In this document: piece by piece, positions 1,999 through 45,454 of the stretch
How the letters are laid out: every line of letters starts with the position of its first letter
Position numbering within the stretch: position 1 is the first letter of the stretch
Sequence record: NC_134263.1
From: Escherichia phage T5_ev219
Strand: one strand, 5' to 3'
Length of the DNA: 64,000 bases
Notes under the pieces: model-generated
Told to the model about the DNA's origin: nothing
The model's input: the letters and a program-made list of their open reading frames with translations, nothing else
Databases searched by the model: none
Made by a program: the position numbers and the translations under genes

Positions 1999-3669
1999 TT
2001 ACGCAAAGAATTTACCGTTTTTAAAGTCGATCAAAGTGCGTTGACCGTTTGCATAGGTAATTAAATGCGTCTGCGTCCAACTTGACGCGCCAACGTTGTA
2101 GCCCATATCCAGACTACCAGCTACGCCAGCGGTATATACGCCGCCATAAATGCTGGCGGTATGGGTATGCCCCGTGTTTAACTTGCCCAATTTTTTAAAT
2201 TGTTTAGGATTGCCACGACTGCCGTTAATGCCATTGTGACCGTGTACGCCGCATTCAATGCCTGCAATCTTGAAAGATTGATCAGTGGTCAGGAAAATGG
2301 CGTTAAATTCACAACCTGCAACCTTGCGCAACGCATAATCTAGCACGTTAAACGTTTCGTCGTGTTCACCGATTGCCGCGTAAATTGCAGCATTCAGGCG
2401 GTGATATAACTCGGCGTTTGCTGGATCGTCTTTGATGTTAGCATTACGATCATCAAGCCAACGGGATAGCGCCAAATCGTGATTAGATTCAACAATGATT
2501 GTTTGACTAAAATCACGTTCCATTGATTCCAGCACGCGCCCCGTATCGATAAGATCATCCAGAACTTTATCACGTCCGGCGGCGTATTGTTTAGCTAGGA
2601 ATACACCGGATGCGCGGTTATGATGATTGCGGGATGTAAAATCGTGAACGTCATGCACAAACTGATATTTTGGTTTAAGAATATCTACTAGCCCATAAGT
2701 ATCACCATGCCCCCAAGATGCGGCGGCGCACTCCTCATCTAATTTTTCGGCGTGAATATCGCCATACTGCAAGCCTAAAACATGCCCCGATGTCTCATAG
2801 CATCCGGCAGGAGTAGCGCAAACGTTCAGATCATAAAACACCCCGCTTTCGTCCATTGTTTCAAGCTGGCGAACAAAAAATTCCCCGTCCTCATCGAACT
2901 CAACAATCAGCGCACCGAAGTTATGCAGCGCCTCGGCCTTTTGTCCTGCTTTCTGCTGAATGTAGTTTTTTAACGTTGCCGTTCCGGTTGAATACATACG
3001 GCGCACTACTTCACCTTTTAAAGCTGGCACGCTTTCAGCGGTAATTTTAGCGTGACCAATTGCCAGCCCCTCAATATTTAAAGCCGTTGCAGTCTCGGCG
3101 AATCCAGAAAGCGGATAATCTGCGGTTGGCAAAACATTAATTTCAGCCATGAAAGCAAAACGGCGATTATTCAAAAACACGTTTTTGCTGCAAATATATT
3201 TATCGAACGCGGAATCATATTTGATTCCATCCGCACCTTCCCCATTTTGGAATCCGTTTTTATTATAAATATACTTAGAAACAAGCAAATCAGCGCCGAT
3301 ATATTTAGCAAATTGCTCCAGTGAGGCTAAAAAGTTTTTATGCGGGAAAGTATTATTCTGAATCGAGGTAATAATAAAGCGTTTACCTTGTTTTACTTCC
3401 CATTGCTCCACCGTACTAGAAACAATCCCCGCCGCTTCTGGGCGTTCATCGTTTTTAATGGCTTTTGCTACTTTCGCCGCTTTCGGTTTCGCTGGTTTAT
3501 TTGCTTCCAGCCAGTCGCAGATAGCGGTCGAGTGTTTTGTAGTATCATAGACCGCTTTTGATATATCGTCGCAGACTTCCAGTTTAGTAGCGCGCAGACG
3601 TTTACCGTAGAAATTGAAGTCAGCGGCCATTTTCAGGATAACGGTTTGTTTTTCTGCGGAAATAATCAT
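1999..3669 (-). CDS. A1: pre-early A1 protein (calcineurin-like metallophosphoesterase motifs)
   Basis: Track ORF 561 aa; start at Met6 gives 556 aa with GGAG RBS 9 nt upstream; motifs GDIHAE, GHGD, SNHD. Confidence 0.8.
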   Translation of the reverse strand: MIISAEKQTVILKMAADFNFYGKRLRATKLEVCDDISKAVYDTTKHSTAICDWLEANKPAKPKAAKVAKAIKNDERPEAAGIVSSTVEQWEVKQGKRFIITSIQNNTFPHKNFLASLEQFAKYIGADLLVSKYIYNKNGFQNGEGADGIKYDSAFDKYICSKNVFLNNRRFAFMAEINVLPTADYPLSGFAETATALNIEGLAIGHAKITAESVPALKGEVVRRMYSTGTATLKNYIQQKAGQKAEALHNFGALIVEFDEDGEFFVRQLETMDESGVFYDLNVCATPAGCYETSGHVLGLQYGDIHAEKLDEECAAASWGHGDTYGLVDILKPKYQFVHDVHDFTSRNHHNRASGVFLAKQYAAGRDKVLDDLIDTGRVLESMERDFSQTIIVESNHDLALSRWLDDRNANIKDDPANAELYHRLNAAIYAAIGEHDETFNVLDYALRKVAGCEFNAIFLTTDQSFKIAGIECGVHGHNGINGSRGNPKQFKKLGKLNTGHTHTASIYGGVYTAGVAGSLDMGYNVGASSWTQTHLITYANGQRTLIDFKNGKFFA

Positions 3670-3758
3670 AGTATAAAACTCCATTAAAGGGATTAAGTTA
3701 ATAACGGCAATATTGCCAAATATAACGCCTATTATTCAAGGCGTTATAATTTGCAACA

Positions 3759-4046: not shown

Positions 4047-4454
4047 TTATTCGCCTGCGGCCTGTTTTACTTCATCGGCAACGCCTAACAATTGCGCTAC
4101 TGCGTCCAGCGTTTCAAGTTTTGCACTTTCAAGGCTTGCCAAATCATCGGCGTCTTTGATAATGCCGGAATCAATAGCATGTTTAGCGATAACGCGCACA
4201 TAGTGAGCTTTACGCACAGAGCTACCGCCGCCAACTTTACGCGGCTTATCGCTTTTTTGATAGGCTTTTGCACTGGTCAATTTTGAGCGAACGGATACGG
4301 GGGAGGCCGCGCCTACTGCTTTTGCAATCTCTTTCAGGCCGTCGCTATTTGCAAAATCTAAACCGTTTTCGTTGATTAACTGCTGGTACATGGTAACAGC
4401 TTTCTGAGTGTTTTCTTCATTCCATGCGAATTTTGCGGTTTTTGCGTTAGTCAT
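4047..4454 (-). CDS. pre-early protein, candidate A2 (small DNA-binding protein)
   Basis: 135-aa ORF immediately downstream of A1, Lys/Ala-rich; assignment by position only. Confidence 0.5.
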   Translation of the reverse strand: MTNAKTAKFAWNEENTQKAVTMYQQLINENGLDFANSDGLKEIAKAVGAASPVSVRSKLTSAKAYQKSDKPRKVGGGSSVRKAHYVRVIAKHAIDSGIIKDADDLASLESAKLETLDAVAQLLGVADEVKQAAGE

Positions 4455-4553
4455 GGTAAAAACTCCTATTAGTTTAATTTAAGGGATTTAATGATTAACC
4501 TAATGTTAATCGTTATATCCCCTTATTTCAGGGGATATAAAGTTAACACTAAT

Positions 4554-4805
4554 TTATAGTACAGCTTCCCATTTTTCGTTGCGTTGAACAACTTTTACAA
4601 CGTCGCCGGATTTAACGCGAACGCTAAAAACGGTTTTGCCGTTGTTACTACGTTCATTTTCAGCGTATACCGCGTCGATTGTATCAAACGGCATAAGCGC
4701 CGCACCTTTAATACGTTCGGCTTTTCCGGTTAGTTCATCCGTTTTAGTAACGAAAGGAATAAAAACGGATTGACCAATTTTAGGCGCGGTAATAACGTTT
4801 TTCAT
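4554..4805 (-). CDS. hypothetical protein
   Basis: 83-aa ORF. Confidence 0.45.
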   Translation of the reverse strand: MKNVITAPKIGQSVFIPFVTKTDELTGKAERIKGAALMPFDTIDAVYAENERSNNGKTVFSVRVKSGDVVKVVQRNEKWEAVL

Positions 4806-5032
4806 AATATAAACTCCTAGTTATTTGGGGATTGTTCCGCATTACCTGCTAGAAAGTAGCAGGTAATAAGCAACAATCCGCTCACCGCTATAATCAATTT
4901 AAAGAACTCCATGCAGGCCGCTATATCCCAGTTAGGGGGCGGGACACATTATGGTAAGTGCCGACCGTCAGATTTTATCAAGTTATCGCTCTTATCGAAC
5001 TGAGTACATCTTAAAGCCTATCGGCTAGGTTG

Positions 5033-5236
5033 TCAAACAATTTTTTGAGATTTTTTATGATTTTCTTTCAGGTCAATCATAATATTCCGCCAGATCATTT
5101 CTAAACCTTGCTGGCGACCTTTCTTGTACTGCGTGAATCGGTATTTTACCGATCTTTGCGCTATTGTCAACAATTTTTTAGTTTCGCTATCCAGTGCCTT
5201 GCTAGGTTTACCAGTGATCAATAAAGTTTGTTTCAT
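5033..5236 (-). CDS. hypothetical small basic protein flanked by 16-bp inverted repeats
   Basis: 67-aa ORF; perfect IR cttaaagcctatcggc at 5010-5025 and 5271-5286. Confidence 0.4.
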   Translation of the reverse strand: MKQTLLITGKPSKALDSETKKLLTIAQRSVKYRFTQYKKGRQQGLEMIWRNIMIDLKENHKKSQKIV

Positions 5237-5690
5237 ATCGTCGATTCCTTATATAATAGATAAGTTTATCGCCGATAGGCTTTAAGATATACCCAATTTT
5301 TAAAGAGCGCGGCGGTAAACTTTCCCGCCGTTGTAGTTCGTCATTGCCGCCCTACGAGATAAATAATAGCAAATGCCAAAAATGGCGCAACCTTATTTTT
5401 GTAAAGAAACGTAAAGACAAATGCCACCGGACACCGTGCGGCGACGGCCTAAAATTAAAAGAAACGGGCGCGCGAATACCACAAAACAAAGCAGATAGGC
5501 AAGTAATTTTTTCATTTATATTTGCTTCCCCTACTTGACAAAATCTAAAAAGCTCGTGGCAGCGATAAACGAGGGTAGGCAATGCAATGGCATGGCTAAA
5601 ACTTTCATCGCGTTCTAGGGCGTTTTAGGCGCCTTAAATTGGACTTAACAAATATTTAACAAAAGCAAAATTGAAAAATAGTTGAAAAAG

Positions 5691-5714
5691 GTCTTGACTT
5701 TTAAAAATCAAGAC
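5691..5714 (-). terminator. hairpin downstream of HNH gene
   Basis: gtcttga...tcaagac stem followed on minus strand by a T-run. Confidence 0.45.
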
Positions 5715-5739
5715 TAAATAAGTTAATTTAGTAAATAAA

Positions 5740-6258
5740 TTAATTGACAATTCCATATTCAGCTTTTTTAATTTCAAGCCATAATAATAACTCTTGTAAA
5801 TCATAACCAGACTTACTAACACGCTTGTTAGTAATAGGATTCTTAATTTGAGCAGTCAAATAGTCACGCCCGTAATTATCCCGGGGGCGAACTTTATTAA
5901 CGTAAATGTTTTTAGGGATACCATTAGCACGCTTACAGTTTTCATACTCACTAGGAGTGCGATTATAATTATTCTGCGAACTATCAACCGCGCGAAGATT
6001 CCAGATGTTATTATTACGAGTGTTACGATCAATATGGTCAATCATTAGCTCGCTATCTATACCGCCATTCATTATACAAAAGATAATTCTATGTACTTTG
6101 AATTGTCCCATGTCTAATAGTTCAACTTGCCAATAATTACCATTTAAACCACCTGCGATGGCGTGATCTTCTCGCCAACGTAAAAACGATAACGACGTTT
6201 CATCATAATAAAAGTAACTATTAAAAAGGTCATAATCTATATCTTTATATTTAGGCAT
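5740..6258 (-). CDS. HNH homing endonuclease
   Basis: 172 aa; HNH-like motif HRIIFCIMNG...DHIDRNTRNNNIWNLR. Confidence 0.65.
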   Translation of the reverse strand: MPKYKDIDYDLFNSYFYYDETSLSFLRWREDHAIAGGLNGNYWQVELLDMGQFKVHRIIFCIMNGGIDSELMIDHIDRNTRNNNIWNLRAVDSSQNNYNRTPSEYENCKRANGIPKNIYVNKVRPRDNYGRDYLTAQIKNPITNKRVSKSGYDLQELLLWLEIKKAEYGIVN

Positions 6259-6448
6259 CTAATTGTTTCCTTATGTTATTACTTTAATCTCTATTATATT
6301 ATATCAAAATGATTAGCAGACTAGCTAATGAGTTTTTCAGGTTTAATTAGCTGACTCATAATCACTATAAAAACCTATTAGCCAACTAACTATATTTTAC
6401 GATATAATAACTACATAAATTAGTTAGTGAGAATCACTATCATTTAAG

Positions 6449-6530
6449 TTATCCACAGACTTAATCACAGCACAAAATGATTTGACACGATAGGCGGCGA
6501 TATAAGCACTTATCCACAGACTTATCCACA
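6449..6530 (+). promoter_or_regulatory. cluster of three DnaA-box matches (TTATCCACA)
   Basis: Exact TTATCCACA at 6449-6457, 6510-6518, 6522-6530. Confidence 0.6.
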
Positions 6531-9698: not shown

Positions 9699-9849
9699 AA
9701 CGATGGTTTAATCACTGGTATAAGCGGTTTTTAGTACGCCGTCGCAAGTCTAGACAACAAGATGAGTGGCGGGAGTGGGCAAAGCGTAACGGTTGCCCAC
9801 TACTATAATAATAACGGGGCGCAACTATCAGGGAGTGCCCCCAATTCTC

Positions 9850-9870
9850 AAATGAGAATCATTCTCATTT
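9850..9870. repeat. 21-bp perfect palindrome
   Basis: aaatgagaatcattctcattt. Confidence 0.7.
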
Positions 9871-10065
9871 GACCGCGCCCGCGATGGTTAGCCTGCTAAT
9901 GATTAGGGTGTTACGTGTCGCCTTGTGTGATCGTTAGCGAGCTAACTAATTTTCAAGCCTCCTCCAATTTTGCCCTTGTTTTAGTATCCCCACCAAAATT
10001 AAACGCGTTAGAATGCGATCTAGGACGTTTTAACGCTATATTAGAACTATTCACTGCATAGGAAT

Positions 10066-10085
10066 ACTGTATATTTATACAGTAG
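10066..10085. promoter_or_regulatory. LexA (SOS) box consensus palindrome
   Basis: tactgtatatttatacagta contains CTGT-N8-ACAG; adjacent TTATCAACA-like motifs and a perfect DnaA box (ctgtggataa) at 10166-10175. Confidence 0.5.
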
Positions 10086-10189
10086 GATAAGCTGTTGATA
10101 AGTCTGTTGATAACGCTTCAAAATGGCTAGGATTCTGTCAAGTCAAATCGTGCTGTTAATAAGCCTGTGGATAACTTAAATAACAGTGT

Positions 10190-10370
10190 TTCTCATTCCC
10201 GTTTTTAAACGAGAATCATTATCATTCGCATTCCACTATCTAACTGATAATCATTCCACTTTTTAAATGAGAATCATTTCACTTCCTGAATAATTTTCAT
10301 TTCACTTTCTAAATGCAAATCATTATCATTCGCATTCCGCTTTTTAAATGCGAATGATTCTCATTTGTAT
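10190..10370. repeat. array of degenerate ~20-35-bp repeats
   Basis: tttttaaa(c/t)g(a/c)gaatcatt units at 10202, 10260, 10340; atcattatcattcgcattcc twice. Confidence 0.65.
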
Positions 10371-10408
10371 TAGCATTCAGGCGAGCAGGGCAATTGCCCT
10401 GCGCTTTT

Positions 10409-33752: not shown

Positions 33753-33938
33753 TTACTCAGCTTTGAGTTTTTCAATAGCTGCATTAAGTTCTTTAAGAAA
33801 CTCTTTTCGTACATTAAGACGATTGAGACTTACTAGTATATCATGTTTAAGTTCTTCGATGTATTTCTTTTCAACTTCAATATTGTTGATAGTGCTATCA
33901 CGATGAACTTCTAACTGTGCAATTACATTCTTGGACAT
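33753..33938 (-). CDS. hypothetical coiled-coil protein
   Basis: 61-aa ORF. Confidence 0.4.
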   Translation of the reverse strand: MSKNVIAQLEVHRDSTINNIEVEKKYIEELKHDILVSLNRLNVRKEFLKELNAAIEKLKAE

Positions 33939-35483: not shown

Positions 35484-35574
35484 TGGTGTTGGATGATGGA
35501 GTCGAACCACCCGAGACCCTTCCGAGTCGGCAGATTTACAGTCTGCTTCGCTACCTCTACGATACTAATCCAAC
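35484..35574 (-). tRNA. tRNA-Tyr (GTA), class II
   Basis: 91 nt; perfect acceptor; anticodon stem GCAGA/TCTGC; loop CTGTAAA. Confidence 0.7.
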
Positions 35575-35702
35575 ATATTTAAAAGTATTCAAATACTAGT
35601 TTAAACACTTTTAAATATGTTTCCGAATTAGATAACTATTATACCAAGTTTTAAGGCACTGAGCAAGTCAAATTTTAAAGAACTTGCTCAGTGCTGTATT
35701 AG

Positions 35703-35978
35703 TTAGTCGAACTTAGGAGTGACAGTTAAGGAGAACGGAAGTTCGAAAACTTCTTCGCCCTCATTACTAACGGTAACTACACGACCTTTAAGTTCAGACA
35801 TTAAAATATCAATATCAGCTTTTGCATCTGGAGCCATGCCAGCTTCAATACATTTAGCTTTAACTTCCGGTAAAAGCTCTACGTTATAGAGATAGAGCCA
35901 CTCAATCTCACCTTCCCAGTCTTCCCAGGATTTGCAGATTGCACTTTCAATACCAGTTGCTACAACACGATTTTGCAT
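35703..35978 (-). CDS. hypothetical protein
   Basis: 91-aa ORF behind a family promoter. Confidence 0.5.
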   Translation of the reverse strand: MQNRVVATGIESAICKSWEDWEGEIEWLYLYNVELLPEVKAKCIEAGMAPDAKADIDILMSELKGRVVTVSNEGEEVFELPFSLTVTPKFD

Positions 35979-44487: not shown

Positions 44488-45189
44488 TCAAATTTTGATT
44501 TTTTCGACCATAGCTGCAACACAATAGCTCTCAACTAAGGCATCAAATGCTGGGTCGTGCTTAACCGGATAGATCCCATAACGAATGGTGTCCATCTTCT
44601 CCATTTTAGCTATTGCCCAGCTAATACCTTCGGTCTCTAGAGCTTTATAACTATATCCAGCTTGCATCCAGAGATTACGAAGAGATCGAACATTACCCAA
44701 GTTCCAGAATTTCCACGGAACTATTTCTTCATTGGTTCCAGCATGGAAAGTGTTTGCAGAGTAGATAGTCATATCAAACTCTGGGCCGTTGCCATAATAC
44801 AAAGCATTCTCTCCTAGAGCCAACTCCATAATATTTTGAGCCATAGAGTAAGCAGCATAGTTAGAGCCGAGTTTATTAGTACAATGATGTTTACCGTTTT
44901 GGAATGCAATCAGCTTTGGATTACGATCGTTCATAGCTTCCATAATGTGGAGGGCAGACGGACTATTCTTAGCTTGACCCATCCAGAATGCTAGAGTAGA
45001 TGCTGTAACTTTAGCACCAGAGTTAAACTGATCTTGCACATCCAAAGTAACAAATACTAGATCAGGGTCTTTATCAATCCCATGCATAGCCACAAAAGCG
45101 AAAGAAGGCATTGCGATATGAGTAGTACCACAATCTCCTGGAGTTCCTAGAGATTCAATATCTAGCATACCAAATGGTTTTACTTTCAT
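44488..45189 (-). CDS. DnaQ-like 3'-5' exonuclease (DEDDh)
   Basis: 233 aa; motif I LDIESLG, C-terminal H-x4-D (KHDPAFDA). Confidence 0.6.
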   Translation of the reverse strand: MKVKPFGMLDIESLGTPGDCGTTHIAMPSFAFVAMHGIDKDPDLVFVTLDVQDQFNSGAKVTASTLAFWMGQAKNSPSALHIMEAMNDRNPKLIAFQNGKHHCTNKLGSNYAAYSMAQNIMELALGENALYYGNGPEFDMTIYSANTFHAGTNEEIVPWKFWNLGNVRSLRNLWMQAGYSYKALETEGISWAIAKMEKMDTIRYGIYPVKHDPAFDALVESYCVAAMVEKIKI

Positions 45190-45217
45190 AACTTATCCTT
45201 TATTGTGTAGAAAACTA

Positions 45218-45454
45218 TTAAAGAGCTGTCTCTTTAATAGACTCCCACTTCTTGGGGTCTTTAAAACCAGGAAGCATATCTTCACTAACATCCCAGTTTT
45301 CTTCCATAGAAAAGTCTGGCCATTCATTCCAGTTATCTTCCAGCTCTTCATAACAGGTATCCATTACCTCATGACTAGAAAGTCGTGTATAATCTCTAGC
45401 GGACTTATGAGTGCTAGCACGGTTAAAATCATTCTTTGCTACAAAATTACGCAT
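45218..45454 (-). CDS. hypothetical acidic protein
   Basis: 78-aa ORF. Confidence 0.4.
   Translation of the reverse strand: MRNFVAKNDFNRASTHKSARDYTRLSSHEVMDTCYEELEDNWNEWPDFSMEENWDVSEDMLPGFKDPKKWESIKETAL

What the first reader, a model, noticed from the sequence alone, without database searches (positions are those of the whole stretch)
5010..5286. Perfect 16-bp inverted repeats flanking a small basic ORF
cttaaagcctatcggc at 5010-5025 and its exact reverse complement at 5271-5286 enclose the 67-aa ORF at 5033..5236. A chance 16-bp perfect inverted pair within 300 bp is very unlikely. It could be a panhandle in the transcript, a paired operator or the footprint of a small inserted element.
Basis: seen in the sequence. 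Interest (0 to 1): 0.45.

Follow-up and report, generated by a model that had tools for sequence, protein, structure and literature searches.

The report
rRNA-operon-like RNA helix around phage hdi
The inverted repeat is real and conserved across T5-like phages; it most likely forms a long RNA helix that closes off the small hdi gene, next to a copy of the host's ribosomal-RNA antitermination signal, so the phage's first transcripts appear to imitate an rRNA operon.

Summary
The perfect repeat is 18 bp (5008-5025 / 5271-5288), extendable to 39 nt, and far beyond chance. The window is a T5-like phage (Tequintavirus), in the left terminal repeat that holds the pre-early genes. The enclosed ORF is Hdi (T5.008), a published FtsZ inhibitor, not a DNA-binding protein.

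The left arm is the spacer and -10 of the known strong promoter P-D/E20. On the transcribed (minus) strand, the right arm lies 9 nt after a hairpin plus an rrn-type boxA (GCTCTTTAAAA), downstream of a conserved promoter.

The repeat is present at the same place in all ~65 relatives examined, from Tequintavirus to Klebsiella, Serratia, Erwinia and Pectobacterium phages. Arm sequences differ between lineages but stay complementary within each genome. Arm spacing (217-407 nt) and enclosed genes vary.

E. coli rrn operons have the same layout: promoter, hairpin, boxA, then the 5' strand of the 16S leader-trailer helix.

Best reading (~0.5): a long-range RNA helix in read-through pre-early transcripts, coupled to Nus/boxA antitermination and probably cut by RNase III. 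Transcripts, Nus binding and cleavage are inferred. Invertible switch, transposon footprint and operator-for-the-enclosed-protein readings were tested and not supported.

The parts
5271..5292 (-). Perfect part 5271-5288; 22 nt with one G.U on the minus-strand RNA.
   Evidence: Only 8% variable columns in 31 relatives.
5004..5025 (-). Perfect part 5008-5025. It is at the same time the spacer (5014-5025), the -10 TAAGAT (5008-5013) and the start region of promoter P-D/E20.
4987..4993 (-). AAGAGCG, which pairs with the CGCTCTT core of boxA (5303-5309). This outer 7-bp extension of the helix is seen in Tequintavirus.
5033..5236 (-). hdi (T5.008 homologue, Pfam DUF7416), a 67-aa host cell-division (FtsZ) inhibitor. 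It is the cargo of the loop.
   Evidence: PMC10714956.
5008..5036 (-). Promoter P-D/E20 core: -35 TTGACA at 5031-5036, 17-nt spacer, -10 TAAGAT at 5008-5013.
   Evidence: 10/12 match. T5st0 record AY692264 annotates P-D/E20 at the equivalent place. Same layout in all lineages.
5143..5170 (-). Promoter P-H22 (-35 TTGACA 5165-5170, -10 TAAAAT 5143-5148), inside the hdi coding sequence. Its transcripts contain only the 3' strand of the helix.
   Evidence: 11/12 match. Annotated in T5 records.
5298..5308 (-). rrn-type boxA, GCTCTTTAAAA (CGCTCTTTAAAAA = 5297-5309), ending 9 nt before the perfect part of the 5' strand (5 nt before its 22-nt extension).
   Evidence: Matches the published consensus GYTCTTTAANA (PMC5725501). 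12/12 identical to the E. coli rrn spacer boxA. Invariant in 31 relatives. Present in sense orientation in all 49 loci held at that point.
5310..5330 (-). Hairpin CGGCGGG-AAAGTTTA-CCGCCG directly 5' of boxA, in the position of boxB in rrn leaders.
   Evidence: The stem is kept while the loop varies or is flipped.
5363..5416 (-). Putative conserved promoter ('P-x'): -35 TTGCGC at 5385-5390, 16-nt spacer, -10 TATTAT at 5363-5368, and a conserved CTTTAC-N4-TTCTTTACAA upstream region at 5391-5416. It would start transcripts that contain both arms.
   Evidence: hexamers conserved at 16-17 nt spacing from T5 to My1.: -10 invariant, spacer 62% variable. Not annotated in T5 records; function inferred.
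4829..4907 (-). Degenerate second boxA (GTTCTTTAAAT, 4897-4907) followed by a 23-bp hairpin (4829-4851 / 4857-4879) in the 5'UTR of the T5.007 homologue. It corresponds to the perfect second boxA found right after the 3' strand in other genera.

Best explanation
The two arms are the two strands of a long-range RNA helix that forms in leftward (minus-strand) pre-early transcripts. These transcripts start at a conserved promoter about 65 nt upstream of the 5' strand, or further upstream. On that RNA the order is: leader, hairpin, rrn-type boxA, 5' strand, ribosome-binding site and hdi (or another small accessory gene), then the 3' strand. The 3' strand is also the -24 to +1 part of the strong promoter P-D/E20.

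This is the layout of the E. coli 16S rRNA leader: P2, boxB hairpin, boxA, then the 5' strand of the leader-trailer helix. By analogy, host Nus factors bound to boxA would travel with RNA polymerase and protect the transcript from Rho. They would also hold the 5' strand near the RNA exit, so the helix closes as soon as the 3' strand is made. That would shut the hdi message into a 217-407-nt loop.

The duplex is at least 22 bp and is the right size for RNase III. Cleavage would separate the hdi cassette RNA from the downstream T5.007-A2-A1 message. It would also give that message roughly the same 5' end as transcripts started at P-D/E20. In most genera a second boxA directly after the 3' strand would reload Nus factors, as the spacer boxA does in rrn operons.

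Shown here: the repeat, its family-wide conservation and covariation, the promoter overlap, the boxA and hairpin context, and the rrn parallel. Inferred: that read-through transcripts exist, that Nus factors bind, that RNase III cuts, and what this does for the phage.
For: 1. The repeat is in the same place in all ~65 related loci with enough flank. Arm sequences differ between lineages but are complementary within each genome: T5 25 nt, S114 38 nt, Klebsiella Sugarlandvirus 30 nt, Serratia Slocum 28 nt, Erwinia KEY 25 nt, Pectobacterium My1 two different pairs. Watson-Crick pairs per 26 positions are 23.1 within a genome and 12.8 between genomes.
2. Formal count on 14 alignable sequences, sense strand: 99.2% of cells paired, and 4 pairs changed on both sides (1 of 500 shuffles reach this). 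Slid registers give only 22-45% paired. KEY versus L065 shows a further A-U to G-C double change.
3. One-sided changes stay paired as G.U on the sense strand (7 pairs kept, 2 broken). On the antisense strand it is the reverse (2 kept, 7 broken; 90.9% paired). The background substitution spectrum in the same genomes is unbiased (284 versus 263).
4. The helix is in the MFE and centroid folds of the window RNA (z = -8.7). Its mean pair probability is 0.87-0.999 in 13 folds from 12 genomes.
5. boxA matches the published consensus GYTCTTTAANA (PMC5725501) and is invariant. It is in sense orientation in every locus, and in other genera recurs directly after the 3' strand.
6. E. coli rrn has the same anatomy, verified here: boxB hairpin, boxA, then the leader-trailer helix strand with a 1,622-nt loop, and a second boxA (GCTCTTTAAAAA) in the spacer. 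The literature describes a 25-40-bp helix and the model that boxA-bound NusB holds the 5' strand until the trailer emerges (PMC10250234).
7. The arm part of the P-D/E20 spacer is far more conserved (17% variable) than another promoter's spacer in the same genomes (62%).
8. The helix persists whatever it encloses: hdi alone, an unrelated ~55-aa gene plus hdi, that kind of gene alone, or unrelated ORFs in My1 and KEY.
Against: No transcript data were available, so transcripts carrying both arms are inferred. The upstream promoter is predicted from conservation only and is not annotated in T5 records. The strand asymmetry rests on about 9 events (p about 0.1), and a perfect repeat folds on either strand (z = -7.45). 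Because the 3' arm is a promoter core, a DNA-level role cannot be excluded by sequence analysis. Nus factor binding and RNase III cleavage are untested. boxC (UCUGUGUGGG) is absent. In the window's genus the second boxA is displaced by about 100 nt and is degenerate. Nothing here shows what benefit the helix gives the phage. hdi itself is dispensable (PMC10714956).
Confidence: 0.5

Rival explanations
1. Paired DNA operators. A phage or host DNA-binding protein recognises the same sequence in both arms, one overlapping the P-D/E20 core and one upstream of P-H22. It represses the tandem pre-early promoters, possibly by looping, for example as part of the A1-dependent shut-off of pre-early transcription.
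For: The left arm covers the spacer and -10 of P-D/E20, a classical operator position, and the pair brackets P-H22. Pre-early shut-off by an unknown A1-dependent mechanism is documented (PMC10644984). Two copies of one site co-evolving with a phage protein would also look like covariation.
Against: Centre-to-centre spacing varies (about 233, 259-261, 275-277, 414 bp and more) and is not helically phased. Identity between arms runs over 22-38 contiguous positions, unlike half-site conservation. Arm sequences are unrelated between genera, and My1 has two different pairs, which would need two proteins. The enclosed protein is an FtsZ inhibitor (PMC10714956), and the repeat persists where hdi is replaced. 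One-sided changes favour G.U on the sense RNA, which a DNA site would not.
Confidence: 0.15
2. Concerted evolution without an RNA role. The right arm is an old inverted partial duplicate of the P-D/E20 core that is kept identical by gene conversion, or kept as a weak RNA polymerase binding site or divergent promoter.
For: The right arm on the plus strand reads like the spacer, -10 and start region of P-D/E20.
Against: There is no -35 at the right arm in any lineage; the hdi ribosome-binding site lies there instead. Repeats of 22-38 bp are poor substrates for frequent conversion, and no crossover product (inversion) is seen in 383 records. Persistence across subfamilies, with arms less variable than neighbouring DNA, implies selection.
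Confidence: 0.1
3. Invertible promoter switch (inverton). Site-specific or homologous recombination between the arms flips the 245-bp segment that carries P-H22 and hdi.
For: Inverted repeats of 18-38 bp flanking a segment of ~250 bp that contains a strong promoter is the usual inverton signature.
Against: A query with the segment flipped finds 0 of 383 phage records with at least 80% colinear coverage (best 55%). The native orientation gives 263 of 429. All ~65 fetched loci have the same orientation. No recombinase is annotated in the terminal repeat of T5 or BF23.
Confidence: 0.03
4. Footprint or termini of a small mobile element (MITE-like), or boundaries of a mobile gene cassette.
For: Terminal inverted repeats around a small unit. 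Gene content between the arms varies among relatives.
Against: There are only two copies of the arm in 64 kb. No empty site occurs in any relative, from T5 to My1. Replacement and insertion breakpoints lie inside the arms at ORF boundaries (about 5046/5230 and about 5215-5236), not at the arms. The arms are functional promoter and leader sequence.
Confidence: 0.03

Closest known systems
E. coli rrn operon leader: boxB-boxA-boxC antitermination site plus the 16S leader-trailer (RNase III processing) helix, with a second boxA in the 16S-23S spacer
   Same: Same order on the RNA: promoter, GC-rich hairpin, boxA, then within a few nucleotides the 5' strand of a long helix whose 3' strand lies after the enclosed unit. 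The helix is of similar length (22-39 bp here; 25-40 bp in Enterobacteriaceae, PMC10250234). It is supported by covariation including G.U exchanges. boxA recurs after the helix in most phage genera, as in the rrn spacer. The window's boxA is 12/12 identical to the E. coli spacer boxA, and relatives carry GCTCTTTAACAATTT, identical to the leader boxA.
   Different: The loop holds a 245-407-nt protein-coding cassette (hdi or other small genes), not a 1.6-kb structural RNA. There is no boxC motif. The 3' strand doubles as the core of a strong promoter. An additional promoter lies inside the loop. Nus binding and RNase III cleavage are not shown.
BoxA/Nus-factor regulation outside rRNA: suhB 5'UTR, CRISPR arrays (PMC5725501, PMC7665894)
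   Same: A consensus boxA (GYTCTTTAANA) in the 5' region of a non-rRNA transcript. Here boxA ends about 60 nt upstream of the hdi start codon, the kind of arrangement in which Nus factors repress translation of suhB.
   Different: Those cases have no long-range helix attached to boxA and are cellular genes. Whether hdi translation is affected is unknown.
Lambda nutL/nutR N-dependent antitermination and sib retroregulation (from my own knowledge, not checked here)
   Same: A phage early operon carrying boxA (lambda nutL as I recall it: CGCTCTTAAAAATTAA, close to CGCTCTTTAAAAATT here). In sib, only read-through transcripts complete an RNase III-sensitive duplex, just as only upstream-initiated transcripts carry both arms here.
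   Different: Lambda boxA is the weaker CGCTCTTA type and needs the N protein bound to a boxB that follows boxA. Here boxA is the full rrn type, the hairpin precedes it as in rrn, and no N-like protein is known in T5. sib is a local hairpin, not a 250-nt panhandle.
RNase III processing sites of T7 early mRNA (from my own knowledge)
   Same: Early polycistronic phage RNA made by host polymerase from very strong promoters and cut into gene-sized pieces at double-stranded sites.
   Different: T7 sites are local hairpins between genes. Here the duplex is formed by sequences flanking a whole gene.
Invertons (fimS, hin and Bacteroides-type promoter switches)
   Same: Inverted repeats of similar length flank a promoter-bearing segment of ~250 bp.
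   Different: No flipped orientation in any sequenced relative, and no recombinase.
T4-type PeSL cassettes (promoter-early stem-loop modules flanking variable ORFs; from my own knowledge)
   Same: An early promoter at the boundary of a slot whose small accessory genes differ between related phages.
   Different: As I recall them, PeSLs are direct repeats with local stem-loops that promote cassette shuffling. Here the repeats are inverted, specific to each cassette, and are not the exchange breakpoints.

Membership tests
rrn-type Nus antitermination site (boxB-boxA-boxC) | boxA matching the gamma-proteobacterial consensus GYTCTTTAANA, in sense orientation downstream of a promoter | tested here: met
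   5298-5308(-) GCTCTTTAAAA. Sense orientation in all 49 loci held at that point. Conserved promoter-like hexamers upstream. Invariant in 31 relatives.
rrn-type Nus antitermination site (boxB-boxA-boxC) | Stem-loop (boxB position) immediately 5' of boxA | tested here: met
   Hairpin 5310-5330 in the MFE and centroid folds. The stem is kept across lineages with variable or flipped loop. Its sequence is unrelated to E. coli boxB.
rrn-type Nus antitermination site (boxB-boxA-boxC) | boxC (UCUGUGUGGG) about 18-19 nt downstream of boxA (PMC10250234) | tested here: not met
   The sequence after boxA is TTGGGTATATCTTAAAGCC, with no boxC-like motif. The position is taken by the 5' strand of the helix.
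rrn-type Nus antitermination site (boxB-boxA-boxC) | Binding of NusB/NusE (and SuhB, NusA, NusG) and resistance to Rho | not testable with these tools
   Needs ChIP/RIP or in vitro assays.
Leader-trailer / RNase III processing helix | Long helix (about 25-40 bp) formed by sequences flanking a transcribed unit | tested here: met
   18 bp perfect, 22 bp with one G.U, 39 nt overall. 16-40 bp in relatives, with pair probability 0.87-0.999.
Leader-trailer / RNase III processing helix | Base pairing maintained by covariation | tested here: met
   4 pairs changed on both sides (1 of 500 shuffles), 99.2% paired on the sense strand. Unrelated but complementary arms in 6 further lineages.
Leader-trailer / RNase III processing helix | Both strands present on one transcript | not testable with these tools
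   Inferred from the conserved upstream promoter and from the promoter annotated further upstream in T5. There is no transcript map.
Leader-trailer / RNase III processing helix | Cleavage by RNase III | not testable with these tools
   Duplex length is sufficient according to general knowledge of RNase III. No data.
Leader-trailer / RNase III processing helix | Encloses a structural RNA (rRNA) | tested here: not met
   It encloses hdi mRNA or other small ORFs. No Rfam family matches in 4400-6500.
Inverton (invertible promoter) | Both orientations of the segment occur | tested here: not met
   Flipped query: 0 of 383 records with at least 80% coverage. Native query: 263 of 429.
Inverton (invertible promoter) | Nearby invertase or recombinase | tested here: not met
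   None annotated in the terminal repeats of T5 or BF23.
MITE / transposon footprint | Multiple copies, empty sites in relatives, target-site duplication | tested here: not met
   Two arm copies only in 64 kb. The unit is present in every relative. No flanking direct repeat; the flanks continue the inverted repeat.
Paired operators with DNA looping | Conserved helical phasing between the sites | tested here: not met
   Loops of 217, 243-245, 259-261, 341-344, 367 and 398-407 nt.
Paired operators with DNA looping | A cognate DNA-binding protein | tested here: inconclusive
   The enclosed protein is an FtsZ inhibitor (PMC10714956) and is absent in L028/L029, where the repeat persists. Binding by A2 or another protein cannot be tested here.

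The most novel reading that the evidence does not exclude
T5-like phages (Demerecviridae) run their first-injected, pre-early operon as a mimic of a host rRNA operon. Full-consensus rrn boxA elements recruit the host Nus complex without any phage N-like protein. Each small accessory-gene slot (hdi and others) is closed by its own leader-trailer-type helix, whose 3' strand is built into the next strong promoter. [quoted passage not shown]
Probability: 0.35. Interest if true: 0.75.

Novelty: new variant of a known kind. Interest (0 to 1): 0.62.

Why it matters
How T5 expresses and then shuts off its pre-early genes during the pause between first- and second-step DNA transfer is still unresolved. 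P-D/E20 and P-H22 have been model strong promoters for decades.

If the reading is right, a virulent phage uses the host's rRNA antitermination and RNA-folding machinery for protein-coding genes, with no dedicated phage factor. That would extend the known targets of the Nus complex beyond rRNA, suhB and CRISPR arrays. It would also explain why a promoter spacer is under sequence constraint, and give a testable handle on pre-early RNA processing and on expression of the toxic FtsZ inhibitor Hdi.

Practically, anyone using P-D/E20 or engineering the T5 terminal repeat, including hdi deletions, should know that the promoter is half of a conserved helix. I found no paper in the searchable library that links phage T5 with boxA. 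Older subscription literature could not be checked.

Tried and rejected
1. Operator for the enclosed protein. I suspected a ribbon-helix-helix-like repressor from the sequence. Rejected: the ORF is DUF7416/Hdi, a published FtsZ inhibitor, and the repeat persists where hdi is replaced.
2. Right arm as a divergent promoter. Rejected: no -35 in any lineage.
3. Inverton. Rejected by the flipped-query search.
4. MITE footprint or cassette boundary. Rejected: no empty sites, and breakpoints lie inside the arms.
5. Known RNA family. Rfam found nothing relevant in 4400-6500.
6. Mutation bias as the cause of the G.U asymmetry. The background spectrum is unbiased, but the asymmetry itself is only about 7:2, so it stays suggestive.
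7. Aligning all arms with MAFFT failed for distant lineages because the arm sequences are unrelated. I used an alignable subset for the formal count and anchored per-genome comparisons for the rest.
8. Wider sampling gave little. The second IMG/VR scan added 3 loci and the metagenome scan added 18, several too short.
9. Davison's papers on T5 pre-early functions: the 2020 preprint mentions neither these genes nor the promoters, and the 2015 review is not held.
Full report
**1. Observation.**
The sequence cttaaagcctatcggc is at 5010-5025 and its exact reverse complement is at 5271-5286. The perfect repeat is in fact 18 bp (5008-5025 / 5271-5288, read). The repeat finder extends it to 39 nt at 82% complementarity (4987-5025 / 5271-5309). 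The 16-mer is expected 0.02 times per window by shuffling and occurs only at these two places. It is the top spaced inverted repeat in the 64-kb window. The 67-aa ORF 5033..5236(-) lies between the arms.

**2. Context.**
The window is a T5-like phage, closest to Escherichia phage OSYSP at 94.5% over 4800-5600. The region lies in the left terminal repeat, the first-step-transfer DNA that carries the pre-early genes. Nearby genes are:
- A1 at 1999..3684(-) and A2 at 4047..4454(-).
- The T5.007 homologue (DUF7177) at 4554..4805(-).
- An HNH endonuclease gene like T5 hegG at 5740..6258(-).

The ORF of the finding is the T5.008 homologue (Pfam DUF7416, E = 4e-36). T5.008 has been characterised as Hdi, a host division inhibitor that destabilises FtsZ rings. 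T5 lacking hdi is viable but less competitive (PMC10714956). It is therefore a real gene and is not a DNA-binding regulator.

**3. What the arms are.**
The T5st0 record places the experimentally known promoter P-D/E20 at 4664..4738(-), which is window 4982-5056. It places P-H22 inside T5.008.
- P-D/E20 in the window reads TTGACA (5036-5031), 17 nt, TAAGAT (5013-5008).
- P-H22 in the window reads TTGACA (5170-5165), 16 nt, TAAAAT (5148-5143).

The left arm is therefore the spacer, the -10 and the start region of P-D/E20. This holds in every lineage examined: the left arm always follows a TTGACA/TTGCAA -35 and contains a -10-like hexamer. The right arm has no -35 beside it. The ribosome-binding site of the cassette gene lies there instead.

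Just outside the right arm is a motif that is nearly invariant across the family. On the minus strand it reads hairpin CGGCGGG..CCGCCG, then CGCTCTTTAAAAA, then a short linker, then the arm.

**4. Comparative evidence.**
To avoid bias I anchored on the neighbouring gene rather than on the repeat. I collected loci from IMG/VR, GenBank phages and metagenomes. In every locus with enough flank (about 65 loci, 24 distinct arm pairs), the best long-range inverted repeat upstream of the T5.007 homologue is this one.

Arm sequences by lineage:

| Lineage | Arm (one strand) | Notes |
|---|---|---|
| Tequintavirus | TGGGTACATCTTAAAGCCTATCGGC | Typical 25 bp |
| Epseptimavirus S114 | (T5-like) | 38 nt, 92% complementary |
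| Klebsiella Sugarlandvirus | ATTGGGATTCTATAAAAAAGCGTTATCGGC | 30 nt |
| Serratia phage Slocum | AATCTGGATACTAACTTAAAGCCTAGCG | 28 nt |
| Erwinia phage KEY | AATCTGGTATCCATTATGCGCCGCT | 25 nt |
| Pectobacterium phage My1 | Two different pairs | Two successive cassettes |

In each case the partner arm is complementary. Within-genome Watson-Crick pairing averages 23.1 of 26 positions, against 12.8 between genomes. KEY and a related metagenome contig (L065) differ by a clean A-U to G-C double change.

On 14 alignable sequences the sense-strand helix has 99.2% of cells paired. Four pairs changed on both sides, and only 1 of 500 shuffles reaches that. Slid registers give 22-45% pairing.

In 31 close relatives the 5' arm has 8% variable columns, against 26% in the adjacent UTR. 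The arm part of the P-D/E20 spacer has 17%, against 62% for the spacer of the upstream promoter. boxA has none.

Loop length varies: 217, 243-245, 259-261, 341-344, 367 and 398-407 nt. Loop content also varies:
- hdi alone in most loci.
- A ~55-aa gene of unknown function (phrog_21018 or phrog_25172) plus hdi in some.
- Such a gene alone in L028/L029.
- In My1, one cassette holds an Hdi homologue plus another ORF, and the other holds an unrelated ORF.

What is conserved is therefore the complementarity and the position, not the sequence, the spacing or the cargo.

**5. Which strand.**
- One-sided substitutions keep pairing as G.U on the minus-strand RNA (7 pairs kept, 2 broken). They mostly break pairing on the plus strand (2 kept, 7 broken; 90.9% paired).
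- The background substitution spectrum in the surrounding 3 kb of the same genomes is unbiased: 284 wobble-preserving against 263 wobble-breaking transitions.
- The asymmetry rests on about nine events (p about 0.1) and is only suggestive.
- The stronger argument is context. All known transcription here is leftward, and the adjacent conserved motif is orientation-specific.

**6. The boxA context.**
The motif GCTCTTTAAAA at 5308-5298(-) matches the published gamma-proteobacterial boxA consensus GYTCTTTAANA (PMC5725501). That consensus occurs 4 times in the window against 0.83 expected. GCTCTTTAA is present in all 49 loci held at that point, always in the sense orientation of the local transcription unit.

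In Epseptimavirus, Klebsiella, Serratia, Erwinia and Pectobacterium phages, a second copy (CGCTCTTTAACAATTTGG) follows the 3' arm within about 12 nt. In My1 the copies alternate with the two helices. In the window's genus the second copy is displaced by about 100 nt and is degenerate (GTTCTTTAAAT, 4907-4897). The sequence after the 3' arm instead contains AAGAGCG, which pairs with the boxA core.

Upstream of the hairpin is a promoter-like element conserved from T5 to My1. It has a TTGCGC/TTGCAA-type -35, a 16-17-nt spacer that varies freely, a TATTAT/TAATAT -10, and a conserved leader. It is not annotated in T5 records, so it is an inference.

**7. Comparison with rrn, checked with tools.**
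A 72-nt stretch of the E. coli rrn leader, written from memory, matched at 100% identity in all 5,426 complete E. coli genomes. The median is 7 places per genome, and the match ends 83 nt upstream of 16S rRNA. In that locus the order is:
- P2 promoter.
- Hairpin GCCGC..GCGGC.
- TGCTCTTTAACAATTT (boxA).
- The 5' strand of the inverted repeat that brackets 16S, starting within boxA itself, with 1,622 nt between the arms.

The 16S-23S spacer has a second hairpin plus boxA, GCTCTTTAAAAA. This is identical to the window's motif, and GCTCTTTAAAAATCTGGAT is shared with Serratia phage Slocum over 19 nt.

The literature describes the 25-40-bp leader-trailer helix, its covariation through Watson-Crick/wobble exchange, and its cleavage by RNase III. 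It also gives the model in which boxA bound by NusB keeps the 5' strand at the RNA exit until the trailer emerges (PMC10250234). The phage unit has the same parts in the same order on a small scale.

**8. Folding.**
The minus-strand RNA 5345-4975 folds with the hairpin, the 7-bp outer helix (boxA core with AAGAGCG) and the long inner helix. These appear in both the MFE and centroid structures (-109.7 kcal/mol, z = -8.7). The plus strand also folds (-102.6 kcal/mol, z = -7.45), as any inverted repeat must. In 13 sense-strand folds from 12 genomes the helix has mean pair probability 0.87-0.999.

**9. Mechanism proposed.**
Transcripts that start upstream of the 5' strand carry both arms. Those from P-H22 carry only the 3' strand, and those from P-D/E20 carry neither. 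I propose four steps:
1. The host Nus complex assembles on boxA and protects the leftward pre-early transcript from Rho.
2. The helix closes when the 3' strand emerges, enclosing the accessory-gene message.
3. RNase III cuts the duplex. This releases a cassette RNA with paired ends and a downstream RNA whose 5' end is close to that of P-D/E20 transcripts.
4. The following boxA reloads Nus factors.

Steps 1 to 4 are inferences by analogy. boxA close to the hdi start could also damp hdi translation, as at suhB (PMC5725501), but that is speculation.

**10. Rivals.**
- Paired operators: weakened by unphased spacing, contiguous lineage-specific complementarity, two different pairs in My1, and persistence without hdi. 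Not excluded, because the 3' arm is a promoter core.
- Divergent promoter copy: there is no -35 at the right arm.
- Inverton: a flipped query finds 0 of 383 records with at least 80% coverage, against 263 of 429 for the native query.
- Mobile-element footprint: no empty site, only two arm copies, and breakpoints inside the arms.

**11. Novelty and score.**
No paper in the searchable library links phage T5 with boxA, and none found describes this repeat. Older subscription literature could not be searched. The parts (boxA, leader-trailer helix, strong T5 promoters, Hdi) are each known. New here are their combination in a virulent phage's protein-coding pre-early operon and the embedding of one helix strand in a promoter core. 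I rate it a new variant of a known kind, interest 0.62. Confidence is about 0.5 in the compound explanation: about 0.6 that the helix acts at the RNA level, and about 0.35 that RNase III processing is its purpose.

Noticed in passing
window 35673-35683 (-): A perfect match to the boxA consensus (GTTCTTTAAAA) in sense orientation, just upstream of an untranslated run of minus-strand tRNA genes (Tyr 35484-35574, Glu, Trp, Phe). It lies between the arms of a hairpin (35643-35668 / 35682-35707). It could be a second place where the phage uses Nus antitermination.
   Followed up: partly
window 45216-45226 (-) and 33788-33798 (+): Two more consensus boxA matches. The first is in sense orientation at the 3' end of ORF 45218..45454(-), upstream of ORF 44488..45189(-). 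The second is antisense to the local tRNA genes and is probably chance.
   Followed up: partly
window 5363-5416 (-): A promoter-like element conserved across the family and not annotated in T5 records: -35 TTGCGC, -10 TATTAT, and a conserved direct repeat CTTTAC-N4-TTCTTTACAA just upstream, which might be an UP element or a regulator site.
   Followed up: partly
window 4829-4907 (-): A 23-bp hairpin (87% complementary) in the 5'UTR of the T5.007 homologue, preceded by a degenerate boxA (GTTCTTTAAAT). The order is boxA then hairpin, as in lambda nut sites.
   Followed up: partly
L028/L029, L023, L025/L026, L040, L041 (region equivalent to window 5026-5270): The slot between the arms holds different small genes in different phages: hdi alone, a 52-56-aa ORF (phrog_21018 or phrog_25172, unknown function) plus hdi, or such an ORF alone. 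The L028/L029 phage therefore lacks hdi and P-H22 at this locus.
   Followed up: partly
L048 (Pectobacterium phage My1) 6363-7051: Two successive helix-bounded cassettes alternate with three boxA copies. One cassette holds an Hdi homologue (My1_013, DUF7416, 1e-17) plus My1_012, and the other holds My1_014, which has no family.
   Followed up: yes
L002 (AY543070) versus L043 (AY692264): The two T5 GenBank records disagree on P-D/E20: 4338..4664 in one and 4664..4738 in the other. The sequence (TTGACA-17-TAAGAT) supports the second.
   Followed up: yes
window 5740-6258 (-): An HNH homing-endonuclease gene (hegG-like), followed by a terminator-like hairpin at 5691-5714. It is present here and in T5 but absent from BF23 at this place, so it is a presence/absence polymorphism inside the pre-early leader region.
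   Followed up: no
window 5393-5515 (-): A 40-aa ORF that matches only the first 30 of 61 positions of phrog_17446. It looks like a truncated small gene between the HNH gene and the predicted promoter.
   Followed up: no
L003 versus L001, hairpin 5' of boxA: The hairpin before boxA is reverse-complemented in some genomes (CGGCGGTAAACTTCCCGCCG versus CGGCGGGAAGTTTACCGCCG). The stem is kept and the loop flipped.
   Followed up: no
window 9849-10371: A cluster of inverted and direct repeats (AAATGAGAATCATT and similar) at the inner end of the terminal repeat. It corresponds in position to the injection stop signal region annotated in T5.
   Followed up: no
GenBank records MF402939, OK272480, NC_105512 and PP094244 (hits): The 83-aa pre-early T5.007 homologue (DUF7177) is labelled 'baseplate wedge protein' in several phage records. 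This is almost certainly an annotation error that has been propagated.
   Followed up: no
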